Shown here: positions 2 through 6,564 of the stretch, piece by piece
Layout: the number at the start of each line of letters is the position of its first letter
Position numbering within the stretch: the stretch's first letter is position 1
Sequence record: MT446386.1
Reading direction: 5' to 3' (one strand)
DNA: 64,000 nt
Origin: Escherichia virus TH06
The notes under the pieces: generated by a model
What the model was told of the DNA's origin: nothing
What the model saw: only the letters and a program-made list of their open reading frames with translations
The model's database searches: none
Program-made: the position numbers and the translations under genes

Positions 2-175
2 AAGCTGACATTTGAATTCCATAACGTAACCAAGCATCATAGCTTACGAGTTCGTGCTGGTATGCGTGTTGGTCAGATGGTTATGTTTGAGCACTCTCAT
101 GCAGGGGAGCACTCCTATGCAGTGAAGGGTCGTTATAATAACTCTGAAGGTGTAGTTGCATCTAAAGGTGTGTAA
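2..175 (+). CDS. 3' end of a small protein gene (5'-partial); C-terminus (NNSEGVVASKGV) resembles the following tandem family, likely a 4th paralog
   Basis: Frame 2 is open from window edge to TAA at 173-175, immediately before ATG 176; shares NSEG motif with ORF 176-373. Confidence 0.3.
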   Translation, partial: KLTFEFHNVTKHHSLRVRAGMRVGQMVMFEHSHAGEHSYAVKGRYNNSEGVVASKGV

Positions 176-373
176 ATGAAAAAGTGGATTGTTCGTGTAC
201 ATGATAACACGACTGGAGAGTTAGTAGCTGTAGATTTTGTTAAGACTCGAGAGCACGCACGTAGGGTCAAAAATCAATACAAATCTACTTTTAGACTTAA
301 TAAGGTTACACTAGGAAAAGCTATCGTGAATAGTGAAGGTGCTTTTTGTGTTAACAGTAAGGTTTATTATTAA
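176..373 (+). CDS. small protein, tandem paralog family A (65 aa)
   Basis: Track ORF; stop overlaps next ATG (TAATG); shares TR..AR..K and C-terminal SKVYY-type motif with next two ORFs. Confidence 0.55.
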   Translation: MKKWIVRVHDNTTGELVAVDFVKTREHARRVKNQYKSTFRLNKVTLGKAIVNSEGAFCVNSKVYY

Positions 374-582
374 TGAGACCGATCACTATGAGACAATTTT
401 GGTTAGCAAAGATTAAGTGGGCATCAGGTGGTATGACTATGACTGCACTACCCACTCGTCAACAGGCTCGAGATTTTAAAAAGTCTATGTTCAATGTAGA
501 CTTAACTAAGAGCATCAGTATTCATAAGGCCAAGGAGTATTCTTCTGGTCGTGTTTATATCAGCGGAAAGGTACATTACTAA
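373..582 (+). CDS. small protein, tandem paralog family A (69 aa)
   Basis: Track ORF; translationally coupled; TRQQARDFKK and C-terminal GKVHY. Confidence 0.55.
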   Translation: MRPITMRQFWLAKIKWASGGMTMTALPTRQQARDFKKSMFNVDLTKSISIHKAKEYSSGRVYISGKVHY

Positions 583-791
583 TGAAAAAGATGTGGGCTA
601 TTCATGTTGTTTGGGATCTTGAGCAACACATGAGAAAAGATAACATCAAATTGTTTGACACTCGCAAAGAGGCTCGTATTGCTAAGAAACAGTTGAAGAC
701 TCTGGGCACAATAGTAAAAAGCGCTGACATACATCGCTGGTATGAAGACCCTAACACTGGTTCTTTTATGTCTAAAGTAATTTACTACTGA
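582..791 (+). CDS. small protein, tandem paralog family A (69 aa)
   Basis: Track ORF; TRKEARIAKK and C-terminal SKVIYY. Confidence 0.55.
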   Translation: MKKMWAIHVVWDLEQHMRKDNIKLFDTRKEARIAKKQLKTLGTIVKSADIHRWYEDPNTGSFMSKVIYY

Positions 792-815
792 TTGGTAGTA
801 GATATGATAACTCTC

Positions 816-824
816 AAATGTATA
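816..824 (+). promoter_or_regulatory. AAATGTATA element, 8/9 match to the TAATGTATA element seen upstream of other genes in this window
   Basis: Located about 40 nt upstream of ATG 864. Confidence 0.2.
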
Positions 825-863
825 TAGAGTACAATAAGAATTTGTATTTTACAGGAGAGAGTT

Positions 864-1193
864 ATGTTAGATTTGAGTAAAGTGGCCCCGCCCACTGAAG
901 AGATTACAAAATCCAAGGTGATGCAACAGTTTTATCATCGTGATATGCTTGGTCGCTTTATCAAGAATCGTGATGTTGTTGCTTGGTCTATTGGTAATCA
1001 GGGATATCTGTTGAAGGTTCTTCAGGTTACAGGCTCAACTGCTAAGCGAGTTAAGGTGTATGACCCTGAAATGGGGCGTTCTAAGTCAGTAGACCCACAG
1101 AACTGCATCGTAATTACCCAGCAGGTAATGGATAATATTGCACGTAACGTTGCTAACTCAGTTGAACTTGATGGAGAAAACCCAAATGCATAA
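864..1193 (+). CDS. hypothetical protein (109 aa)
   Basis: Track ORF with upstream GGAGAG. Confidence 0.5.
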   Translation: MLDLSKVAPPTEEITKSKVMQQFYHRDMLGRFIKNRDVVAWSIGNQGYLLKVLQVTGSTAKRVKVYDPEMGRSKSVDPQNCIVITQQVMDNIARNVANSVELDGENPNA

Positions 1194-1997: not shown

Positions 1998-2273
1998 ATG
2001 TCTAAAGTAATTAAGTTTTATAGTGATCAGTGTGCTCCATGTAAAGCAATGGCTCCTACCTTTGAGAAGGTTGTTAAGGAGTTTGATGTAGAAGTGGAAG
2101 AGATTAACATCCTTGAAGGTGATGGTCGTGAACAAGCTGTTAAGTATGGTGTACGAAGCATCCCTGCTTTTGTTGTGCCTGACCGTAACAGTGGTGCACA
2201 CTACAGCCTCTCCGGTATGCAGACTGAAGCAAACCTGAAAGCATTTTTGGATACAGCTTTAGGTGTTAACTGA
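1998..2273 (+). CDS. thioredoxin-fold protein (CxxC)
   Basis: CAPC active-site-like motif and IPAFVV cis-Pro-like motif; 91 aa. Confidence 0.55.
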   Translation: MSKVIKFYSDQCAPCKAMAPTFEKVVKEFDVEVEEINILEGDGREQAVKYGVRSIPAFVVPDRNSGAHYSLSGMQTEANLKAFLDTALGVN

Positions 2274-2742
2274 TAAGATAAAAGAAGACCTAGCATATGA
2301 CCCTGATACTGGAATCTTTAGATGGAAGAATACTAAAGGTCGGAGAGTATCAGGGAACATTGCTGGGTGTGTCTCAACATTAGGTTACAGGTACATCTAT
2401 TGTGAAGGGAAATCTTACAGAGCATGTCGATTAGCTTGGTTTTTCTCTTATGGAAAGATGCCTGAGTTTGAGATTGATCACATCAACCAGATTAAACTGG
2501 ATGACTCTCTTAAAAACCTAAGAGATGTTGACCCATCTACAAACTGTCATAACAGAAAACAATACAATAGAGCCGGAAAAGCTGGAAAACTCCCAATGGG
2601 TGTTTACATTAGAGAGACGGCTAGTGGTACAAAATTCAGAGCTATCATCGGAGTTAACGGAAAGACTAAGCATTTAGGAACTTTCCACACTCCAGAGGAA
2701 GCAGAGATTGCTTATAACAAGGAGAAGTTGAAGTATGAATGA
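2263..2742 (+). CDS. HNH homing endonuclease with AP2-like DNA-binding domain
   Basis: EIDHINQIK...NLRDV...NCHNR HNH motif and C-terminal GVY..ETASGTKFRA...G.FHTPEEA; GTG start per track. Confidence 0.65.
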   Translation: MLTDKIKEDLAYDPDTGIFRWKNTKGRRVSGNIAGCVSTLGYRYIYCEGKSYRACRLAWFFSYGKMPEFEIDHINQIKLDDSLKNLRDVDPSTNCHNRKQYNRAGKAGKLPMGVYIRETASGTKFRAIIGVNGKTKHLGTFHTPEEAEIAYNKEKLKYE

Positions 2743-5430: not shown

Positions 5431-5439
5431 TAATGTATA
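5431..5439 (+). promoter_or_regulatory. TAATGTATA element, candidate promoter for the phage-encoded sigma factor
   Basis: Exact 9-mer 37 nt upstream of ATG 5476; same 9-mer recurs upstream of three other genes. Confidence 0.4.
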
Positions 5440-6402: not shown

Positions 6403-6405
6403 GTG

Positions 6406-6564
6406 ATGAAAGAATACATTTACGTAGGACAGCGCTGGTTCGGTGATGAATGGGAAGGTGGATACAGCGTTGTGAAAGCTTTTAAGTCGGAAGAAGATGC
6501 CAAGTCATGGGTCTTAAAAGACGATGTTGGCGAGAGAACTTACATTGAAGTAGAGGTGGAGTAG
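6406..6564 (+). CDS. small hypothetical protein (52 aa)
   Basis: ATG 6406 directly after upstream stop; fills a gap; weak RBS. Confidence 0.3.
   Translation: MKEYIYVGQRWFGDEWEGGYSVVKAFKSEEDAKSWVLKDDVGERTYIEVEVE

What the first reader, a model, noticed from the sequence alone, without database searches (positions are those of the whole stretch)
2..791. Tandem array of at least three (probably four) small paralogous genes at the window start
ORFs 176-373, 373-582 and 582-791 are 65-69 aa, overlap stop-to-start, and share a TR..AR..K segment and a C-terminal (S/G)KV(Y/H/I)Y. The partial ORF ending at 175 shares the NSEG segment. Tandem duplication with divergence suggests selection for variants.
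Basis: seen in the sequence. Interest (0 to 1): 0.45.

Follow-up and report, generated by a model that had tools for sequence, protein, structure and literature searches.

The report
Three small paralogous early phage genes
The start of this phiEco32-like coliphage window holds three (not four) linked copies of a small, very basic protein family of unknown function; the copies are old duplicates, and their number (1 to 5) and sequences vary far more between related phages than the neighbouring genes do.

Summary
ORFs 176-373, 373-582 and 582-791 are phiEco32 gp71, gp70 and gp69. All three match PHROG 4939 (unknown function) end to end. Profiles of their orthologue groups align full length (hhalign E 9e-17, 4e-10, 2e-9). 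AlphaFold gives gp69 and gp71 the same beta-beta-alpha-beta-beta fold (pLDDT 87 and 91). The partial ORF 2-175 is the 3' end of the phage dCTP deaminase gene, not a paralog.

The duplications are ancient: the paralogs are 20-28% identical and each has orthologues across genera. The genes are under purifying selection (dN/dS 0.11-0.40). The array sits in a fixed slot between two highly conserved genes, yet its members fall to 25-50% identity, assort independently between phages, and number one to five.

Each internal gene ends with Lys/Glu-Val codons (AAGGT/GAGGT) that form the ribosome-binding site of the next gene, and stop and start overlap (TAATG).

No Pfam, NCBIfam, PDB or literature match was found, so function is unknown. 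My best inference is non-enzymatic, basic (pI about 10) early binding proteins used in host takeover or counter-defence. Interest is moderate to low.

The parts
2..175 (+). 3' end of the phage dCTP deaminase gene (phiEco32 gp72 homologue). It is not a family member. Its last codons, TCT AAA GGT GTG, carry the Shine-Dalgarno sequence AAAGGTG (164-170) for gp71. Stop 173-175 abuts ATG 176.
   Evidence: PHROG 1663 dCTP deaminase at E 1.8e-17. Annotated dCTP deaminase CDS of 534 nt ends at this point in ShigP1 and phiEco32. It scores 0.2 bits against the family HMM.
176..373 (+). Paralog 1, gp71 type: 65 aa, pI 10.1. Its C-terminal codons AGT AAG GTT hold AAGGT (359-363), the ribosome-binding site of the next gene.
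   Evidence: PHROG 4939 at E 1.2e-27, full length. AlphaFold model pLDDT 91.1 with beta-beta-alpha-beta-beta order. dN/dS 0.20. Present in 64 phage records.
373..582 (+). Paralog 2, gp70 type: 69 aa, pI 10.6. The ATG overlaps the gp71 stop (TAATG, 371-375). A second in-frame ATG at 388 would give the 64-aa form seen in some relatives. AAGGT at 568-572 serves gp69.
   Evidence: PHROG 4939 at E 1.8e-27. hhalign against the gp69 group E 8.7e-17. dN/dS 0.11. Present in all 98 related phage records. 64-aa homologues start MKKFW.
582..791 (+). Paralog 3, gp69 type: 69 aa, pI 9.8, the last array member. The ATG overlaps the gp70 stop (TAATG, 580-584). Its Lys-Val is AAA GTA, with no Shine-Dalgarno sequence and no coupled downstream gene.
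   Evidence: PHROG 4939 at E 1.7e-28. AlphaFold model pLDDT 87.2. dN/dS 0.40 overall and 0.8 in residues 51-66. Present in 94 phage records at 42-100% identity.
781..863 (+). Spacer after the array, holding promoter-like sites that start the middle genes. The sigma-70-like hexamers are TTTACT (781-786) and TATGAT (803-808). The phage-sigma (gp36) motif AATGTATA is at 817-824. This marks the array as the end of the early transcription unit.
   Evidence: Consensus scan. Motif search. The phiEco32 middle/late promoter consensus is tAATGTAtA (PMC8948821). The SU10 paper places a promoter upstream of CDS68 and calls CDS 69-125 early and 25-68 middle (PMC4281155).
864..1193 (+). gp68 homologue (109 aa, unknown function). 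It is the highly conserved downstream boundary of the array slot and is not a family member.
   Evidence: 91-100% identical across relatives whose array members fall to 25-50%. dN/dS 0.04. PHROG 10984, no Pfam match.

Best explanation
Shown:
- The window opens with the end of the dCTP deaminase gene. Three translationally coupled, anciently duplicated genes follow (phiEco32 gp71, gp70, gp69).
- They belong to one family of 64-80-residue, strongly basic proteins (pI about 10) with a beta-beta-alpha-beta-beta fold.
- The family signature is W ... T-R-x-x-A-R-x-x-K(K) ... K-V-[Y/H]-Y at the very C-terminus.
- The family is confined to phiEco32-like prolate podophages.
- In Gordonclarkvirinae it fills a fixed slot between two highly conserved genes, at the end of the early transcription unit.
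- The slot holds one to five members in a conserved order, and its members diverge and reassort far faster than the flanking genes.

Inferred:
- The proteins are too small, and too variable outside one helix, to be enzymes. I take them to be binding proteins made early in roughly equal amounts.
- The invariant basic ridge on the helix (R28, R32, K35, K36 in gp69 numbering) would contact a common negatively charged partner, either nucleic acid or an acidic protein surface.
- The variable beta-hairpin face would give each paralog its own specificity.
- Early expression, variation in copy number, mosaic alleles and a raised substitution rate together fit host takeover or counter-defence better than core metabolism.
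For: Paralogy and fold:
- PHROG 4939 hits for all three.
- hhalign E 8.7e-17, 3.8e-10 and 2.3e-9.
- AlphaFold pLDDT 87 and 91 with the same topology.
- BFVD models of family members in other phages match at TM 0.64-0.86.

Coding and selection:
- dN/dS 0.11-0.40, against 0.04 for gp68.
- 0.8 in the gp69 hairpin, against 0.14-0.20 in strand 1 and the helix.

Divergence hotspot and mosaicism:
- Compared with phiEco32, dCTP deaminase is 86-99% and gp68 is 91-100% identical, while array members are 25-97% identical and vary independently of one another.

Copy number of 1 to 5 with conserved order.

Coupled translation:
- 25 of 27 internal junctions carry AAGGT/GAGGT before a T(A/G)ATG overlap, against 5 of 23 last or solo members (Fisher p = 3e-7).

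Conserved residues and charge:
- pI 9.8-10.6.

Early class: SU10 paper PMC4281155.

Family restriction:
- Only 32 representatives among 1.84 billion proteins.
- None in 185,579 bacterial genomes by pattern scan.
Against: - No paper mentions these genes.
- dN/dS never clearly exceeds 1, so positive selection is not shown. Fast evolution could simply reflect weak constraint.
- Exposure of the basic ridge is inferred from helical periodicity, because no coordinates were available. The invariant Arg and Lys could instead be structural, for example salt bridges to the C-terminal carboxylate.
- The gp70 type is universal and well conserved within Kuravirus, which looks more like a core function than an arms-race gene.
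- The proteins were not detected in the SU10 proteome. That is weak evidence, since small Lys/Arg-rich proteins give few usable tryptic peptides.
Confidence: 0.45

Rival explanations
1. They are small nucleic-acid-binding proteins that act on the phage's own DNA or RNA. They might coat or organise replicating DNA, or shield it from restriction. The paralogs would work together, perhaps as a hetero-oligomer made in equal amounts by coupled translation.
For: - pI about 10 and net charge +6 to +10.
- The only invariant side chains outside the core are Arg and Lys on one helix face.
- The genes sit in the replication and nucleotide-metabolism module, next to a Dps-like DNA-binding protein.
- The BASEL study notes that Gordonclarkvirinae resist restriction-modification systems without any known modification or inhibitor (PMC11990801).
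- Stop-start coupling suggests matched stoichiometry.
Against: - A protein with one conserved ligand would not be expected to diverge to 25% identity between phages whose DNA enzymes are about 90% identical.
- Arrays of one to five members argue against a fixed hetero-oligomer.
Confidence: 0.25
2. They are accessory subunits or regulators of the phage pyrimidine pathway (dCTP deaminase, thioredoxin, ThyX). They would tune or tether these enzymes.
For: - The array always follows dCTP deaminase directly and is translationally coupled to it.
- Extra dispersed copies lie between thioredoxin and ThyX in KBNP1711, NJ01, ECBP2 and several metagenomic relatives.
- The single copy in Salmonella phage PKM.Hi.22.6 lies immediately upstream of ThyX, and a two-domain fusion in Aeromonas phage APT65 lies close to ThyX.
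Against: - The partner enzymes are highly conserved while the small proteins are not. Variable copy number and allele shuffling are unusual for enzyme subunits.
- Gene adjacency in a co-linear phage module is weak evidence of interaction.
Confidence: 0.12
3. One reading: four copies produced by recent tandem duplication and kept because variants are selected.
For: There are three real paralogs in tandem. Copy number varies among relatives.
Against: - The fourth 'copy' is the dCTP deaminase tail.
- The paralogs are 20-28% identical, each with separate orthologue groups across genera, so the duplications predate the subfamily.
- Net selection is purifying.
Confidence: 0.03

Closest known systems
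PHROG 4939 (phage protein family, function unknown)
   Same: All three window proteins, and all 23 distant types tested, match this profile over its full length (E 1e-27 to 1e-13). The window genes are members.
   Different: The PHROG entry carries no function, and nothing there or in the papers searched describes the tandem array, its variable size or its coupling signal.
phiEco32 gp71, gp70, gp69 (phi32_71 to phi32_69), annotated hypothetical proteins
   Same: Same position, same lengths and near-identical sequences. By the phiEco32 column, the near-identical ShigP1 proteins are 91%, 87% and 99% identical to gp71, gp70 and gp69; the window gp69 is 98.6% identical to phiEco32 gp69. Synteny is dCTP deaminase, gp71, gp70, gp69, gp68, Dps-like protein.
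   Different: None of substance. Elsewhere in the window an HNH endonuclease gene (2263-2742) is inserted that phiEco32 lacks.
Small phage-encoded inhibitor proteins with alpha/beta sandwich folds (T4 Dmd antitoxin, AcrIIC3, phi29-type p56 Ung inhibitor)
   Different: No sequence similarity, and the fold scores are at background level for a 69-residue query. p56 is an acidic DNA mimic, whereas these proteins are strongly basic. No inhibitory activity has been shown for this family. It may work like these proteins, but it is not a member of any of those families.
Variable accessory-gene slots between conserved phage genes (for example anti-defence gene clusters)
   Same: A fixed slot bounded by conserved genes, variable gene number, mosaic alleles and early expression.
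   Different: Such slots usually collect unrelated genes. This slot is filled mainly by members of a single family in a conserved order, with an occasional unrelated small ORF (ECBP2, EcoN5, Paul). There is no adjacent HTH regulator.

Membership tests
PHROG 4939 | Significant full-length match to the family profile | tested here: met
   E 1.2e-27, 1.8e-27 and 1.7e-28, covering profile positions 1-67 of 67.
PHROG 4939 | Shared fold among members | tested here: met
   gp69 and gp71 models both show beta-beta-alpha-beta-beta (pLDDT 87 and 91). BFVD models of members from five other phages match at TM 0.64-0.86.
PHROG 4939 | Sequence signature W ... T-R-x-x-A-R-x-x-K ... V-x-Y at the C-terminus (defined here from 54 + 23 sequences) | tested here: met
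   All three window proteins carry it.
dCTP deaminase (for ORF 2-175) | Match to a dCTP deaminase profile, and orthology to an annotated full-length gene | tested here: met
   PHROG 1663 at E 1.8e-17. Pfam DCD scores 20.6 bits, below the 27-bit cut-off, because only the last 57 residues lie in the window. Full-length relatives carry PF22769.
Fourth paralog (ORF 2-175 as a family member) | Match to the family profile | tested here: not met
   0.2 bits against the family HMM with filters off. Not listed in the whole-window scan.
Anti-defence / anti-CRISPR-type inhibitor | Homology to a known inhibitor family | tested here: not met
Anti-defence / anti-CRISPR-type inhibitor | Demonstrated inhibition of a host defence or host enzyme | not testable with these tools
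   Needs genetics or biochemistry.
Nucleic-acid-binding small proteins (RRM-like, dsRBD-like, chromatin-type) | Significant fold or sequence match to a known nucleic-acid-binding domain | tested here: inconclusive

The most novel reading that the evidence does not exclude
The array is a modular counter-defence cassette. Each paralog would use the same basic scaffold to neutralise a different host nuclease or immunity protein, or the paralogs would jointly coat phage DNA. This would account for the unexplained resistance of Gordonclarkvirinae to restriction-modification and most other tested defence systems. The conserved junction (AAGGT-N9-TAATGAAA) would allow units to be gained, lost and swapped by recombination without breaking expression.
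Probability: 0.12. Interest if true: 0.7.

Novelty: new member of a known kind. Interest (0 to 1): 0.33.

Why it matters
These genes are already deposited as hypothetical proteins and already grouped in one PHROG, so the paralogy itself is not a discovery.

New here:
- The family occupies a fixed slot, bounded by two near-invariant genes, that holds one to five members in a conserved order.
- The slot is a local hotspot of divergence and allele shuffling.
- The family's conserved C-terminal Lys/Glu-Val doubles as the ribosome-binding site of the next unit. The synonymous choice AAG versus AAA depends on whether another unit follows.

Kuravirus-type phages are used in therapy cocktails, and the BASEL study reports them as unusually resistant to host restriction with no known reason. 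A fast-evolving early gene family beside the dCTP deaminase and nucleotidyltransferase locus is therefore a reasonable candidate for knock-out tests. Without a function, it remains an ordinary lineage-specific small-protein family.

Tried and rejected
- **Pfam.** All 54 members were scanned at E up to 10 and the window proteins separately. Only noise appeared (DUF5893, LEA_3a). A resemblance to DUF2188- or YegP-type small domains, recalled from memory, got no support.
- **NCBIfam.** Nothing.
- **PDB sequence profile search at E up to 10.** Nothing.
- **Fold searches.**
  - Foldseek PDB best E 0.1.
  - BFVD returned only family members and uncharacterised proteins of related phages.
  - The AlphaFold database library was unavailable.
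- **Exhaustive HMM search of 1.84 billion representatives.** 32 hits. 30 are 64-79-aa proteins; the two others are long proteins matched over only about 30 residues, which I take as spurious and did not examine further.
- **Bacterial genomes.** No copy found.
- **RNA elements.** Rfam found nothing in 1-1200, and no terminator-like site lies in 1-2000.
- **Literature.** Searches for phiEco32, the locus tags, the PHROG number and Kuravirus anti-defence found no statement about gp69-71.

Full report
**What the window is.** The first 3 kb match phiEco32-like coliphages (Gordonclarkvirinae, genus Kuravirus). The best hit is Shigella phage ShigP1, at 97% identity over 100% of the query. In ShigP1 and phiEco32 the matching region is annotated, in this order:
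- nucleotidyltransferase
- dCTP deaminase (534 nt)
- three small hypothetical genes of 198, 210 and 210 nt
- a 330-nt hypothetical gene
- a Dps-like DNA-binding protein
- a small membrane protein
- thioredoxin
- ThyX

The window therefore begins inside the dCTP deaminase gene.

**Checking the observation.**
- The stop and start codons overlap by one base, as TAATG at 371-375 and 580-584. The deaminase stop (173-175) directly abuts the first ATG (176).
- The T-R-x-x-A-R-x-x-K segment and the C-terminal K-V-x-Y are present in all three.
- Profile evidence is decisive. Each protein matches PHROG 4939 over the whole profile at E about 1e-27.
- I split 112 database homologues into three clean orthologue groups of 43, 28 and 41 clusters. 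Alignments of representatives of each group (21, 19 and 15 sequences) align to each other end to end at hhalign E 8.7e-17, 3.8e-10 and 2.3e-9.
- An 18-nt DNA element encoding the TR..AR motif recurs with a period of 209 and 206 nt.

The fourth candidate fails. Residues from 2-175 are the dCTP deaminase C-terminus (PHROG 1663, E 1.8e-17). They score 0.2 bits against the family HMM with all filters off. A scan of every ORF in the 64-kb window finds exactly three members.

**Anatomy of the family.**
- AlphaFold models, built with family alignments, give gp69 pLDDT 87.2 and gp71 pLDDT 91.1. Both have the same order of elements: two long strands, a 12-14-residue helix, then two more strands.
- Predicted structures of members from five other phages in BFVD superpose at TM 0.64-0.86.
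- Across 54 close and 23 distant sequences, the invariant or near-invariant positions (gp69 numbering) are W5, T27, R28, A31, R32, K35, V67 and the terminal Y69.
- In the helix, positions 31, 34 and 38 are hydrophobic. Positions 28, 32, 35, 36 and 39 are basic. By helical periodicity this places a continuous Arg/Lys ridge beside, not within, the face that packs on the sheet. This is inference, because no coordinates were available.
- The proteins are strongly basic, with pI 9.8-10.6.

**Coupling signal.** In array-internal genes the conserved C-terminal Lys/Glu-Val is encoded as AAG-GTN or GAG-GTN. This gives AAGGT or GAGGT nine to ten bases before the next ATG, which overlaps the stop as T(A/G)ATG.
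- 25 of 27 distinct internal junctions have such a motif, against 5 of 23 last or solo members (Fisher p = 2.7e-7).
- The same gp70-type protein uses GGA AAG GTA when a gp69-type gene follows, and GGA AAA GTG when it is the last member (loci L025, L028).
- In the window, gp71 and gp70 carry AAGGT (359-363 and 568-572). The terminal gp69 has AAA GTA.
- The deaminase ends in TCT AAA GGT GTG (S-K-G-V), which is the ribosome-binding site for gp71.

**Distribution and dynamics.** The family is narrow.
- The word-indexed search found 112 clusters, all at E of 4e-15 or lower, all unnamed or 'hypothetical', many of them on contigs of about 76-79 kb.
- The exhaustive HMM search of 1.84 billion representatives found 32 hits. 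30 are 64-79-aa proteins; the other two are long proteins matched over about 30 residues, which I take as spurious and did not examine further.
- A pattern scan of 185,579 bacterial genomes found none.
- Among sequenced phages, the gp70 type is in 98 records, the gp69 type in 94 and the gp71 type in 64. About 95 records have a gp68 at 90% identity or more.

Array content at the slot after the deaminase varies, as scored with the family HMM on the locus ORFs:

| Members | Where |
|---|---|
| 1 | contigs of 68-69 kb (L025, L028); a single very divergent copy in more distant 82-90 kb contigs (E 0.003 in L036 and L037; not significant in L038 and L039) |
| 2 | Suseptimavirus ECBP2, SU7 and EK010; Kuravirus EcoN5 |
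| 3 | this window, phiEco32, ShigP1, Paul, EP335, KBNP1711, NJ01 |
| 4 | a metagenomic Kuravirus with a new type between gp70 and gp69 (L015) |
| 5 | an 87-kb contig (L018) |

- Clustering at 45% identity gives about 27 types, and the order of types along arrays is conserved.
- Some relatives carry an extra dispersed copy between thioredoxin and ThyX (KBNP1711, NJ01, ECBP2, L017, L028, L032). In this window that position holds an HNH endonuclease gene instead.
- Salmonella phage PKM.Hi.22.6 (Grimontviridae) has a single copy right before ThyX. Aeromonas phage APT65 has a two-domain fusion nearby.

The slot is a divergence hotspot.
- Against phiEco32, dCTP deaminase stays 86-99% identical and gp68 stays 91-100% identical.
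- gp71, gp70 and gp69 fall to 25-50% identity and vary independently. For example, EcoN5 gp70 is 97% but gp69 is 62%. KBNP1711 gp69 is 97% but gp70 is 54%.
- Among close relatives, dN/dS is 0.20 (gp71), 0.11 (gp70) and 0.40 (gp69), against 0.04 for gp68.
- Within gp69, dN/dS is 0.14-0.20 in strand 1 and the helix, and 0.8 in residues 51-66, the beta3-beta4 hairpin.

So these are real genes under purifying selection. Constraint is relaxed, or selection is diversifying, on one surface. Positive selection is not demonstrated.

**Expression context.**
- The 72-nt spacer after gp69 holds a sigma-70-like promoter (781-808).
- It also holds AATGTATA at 817-824, which is the core of the motif recognised by the phage sigma factor gp36 (PMC8948821).
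- The SU10 genome paper, following the phiEco32 transcription studies, assigns CDS 69-125 to the early class and 25-68 to the middle class. It places a promoter upstream of CDS68 and finds no terminator at the end of the early genes (PMC4281155).
- The array is therefore the last three genes of the early unit.
- SU10 proteomics detected gp65, gp67 and gp68 but not gp69-71. That is uninformative for such small Lys/Arg-rich proteins.

**What it does.** Nothing in Pfam, NCBIfam, PDB sequences or PDB folds gives a functional handle, and no paper I could search mentions these genes. The explanation therefore rests on anatomy and evolution.
- *Best explanation (confidence about 0.45).* These are non-enzymatic early binding proteins. 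A shared basic helix contacts a common anionic partner, and a variable hairpin surface gives paralog-specific targeting. They are used for host takeover or counter-defence. This fits the size, charge, early timing, copy-number variation, mosaic alleles and hairpin-focused divergence. The universal, well-conserved gp70 type and the absence of dN/dS above 1 count against it.
- *Rival 1 (0.25).* They bind nucleic acid on the phage's own DNA or RNA. This could relate to the unexplained restriction resistance of this subfamily (PMC11990801).
- *Rival 2 (0.12).* They are accessory partners of dCTP deaminase or ThyX, suggested by adjacency in three phage lineages. The mismatch in evolutionary rates argues against this.

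**Novelty and verdict.**
- The genes are known as hypothetical proteins and are already co-clustered in PHROG 4939.
- In the papers I could search, I found no description of the variable ordered array, the hotspot behaviour or the dual-use C-terminal motif.
- I rate it a new member of a known kind: a lineage-specific, fast-evolving family of small early phage proteins. Interest is about 0.33.
- The most novel reading not excluded is a modular counter-defence or DNA-shielding cassette that explains the subfamily's defence resistance. I give that a probability of about 0.12.

Noticed in passing
window 164-178, 359-375, 568-584: The family's conserved C-terminal Lys/Glu-Val codons double as the Shine-Dalgarno sequence (AAGGT/GAGGT) of the next gene. 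The synonymous Lys codon switches from AAG to AAA when no gene follows. 25 of 27 internal junctions carry the motif, against 5 of 23 terminal members (p = 3e-7).
   Followed up: yes
window 2263-2742: A GTG-start ORF with an HNH_3 domain (Pfam E 6.7e-7) sits between thioredoxin and ThyX and overlaps the thioredoxin stop. phiEco32 has nothing there. Several relatives instead carry a dispersed member of the small-protein family at that position. It is likely a homing endonuclease insertion.
   Followed up: partly
window 781-824: Two promoter-like sites lie in the spacer before gp68: a sigma-70-like site (TTTACT, 16 nt spacer, TATGAT) and the phage-sigma motif AATGTATA (817-824). This matches the published first middle promoter of phiEco32 and SU10. 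Six further AATGTATA sites lie at 5432, 12074, 12147, 22331, 39875 and 56332. The total of seven is not clearly above chance (2.7 expected; 4 of 100 shuffles reach 7).
   Followed up: partly
window 864-1193: gp68 (109 aa, no Pfam or NCBIfam match) is extremely conserved: 91-100% identity across the subfamily and dN/dS about 0.04. Homologues at 31-37% identity occur in Aeromonas, Proteus, Salmonella and Cronobacter prolate podophages. It was detected in the SU10 proteome. It is a conserved protein of unknown function that deserves study in its own right.
   Followed up: partly
L036-L038, about 2190-2410 (metagenomic relatives, 82-90 kb contigs): In distant relatives the slot after dCTP deaminase starts with a strongly acidic ORF of 65-74 aa, ending in D/E-rich sequence plus C-x-x-C. 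A very divergent family member follows it. The acidic ORF is unrelated to the family.
   Followed up: no
L023 2318-2707 (Aeromonas phage APT65): A 129-aa protein gives two matches to the family HMM, which looks like a tandem fusion of two family domains (E 2e-6). It lies one gene upstream of ThyX.
   Followed up: no
window 6403-6564: A 53-aa ORF (phiEco32 gp55 homologue, MMKEYIYVGQRW...FKSEEDAKSWV...) shows a vaguely similar strand-strand-helix pattern. It scores only E 5.5 against the family HMM, so it is not a member on this evidence.
   Followed up: no
locus L002 3319-4632 and relatives (just upstream of the window): The nucleotidyltransferase gene (gp73) before dCTP deaminase is also highly divergent between relatives, at 24-87% identity. 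This contrasts with the conserved deaminase next to it.
   Followed up: no
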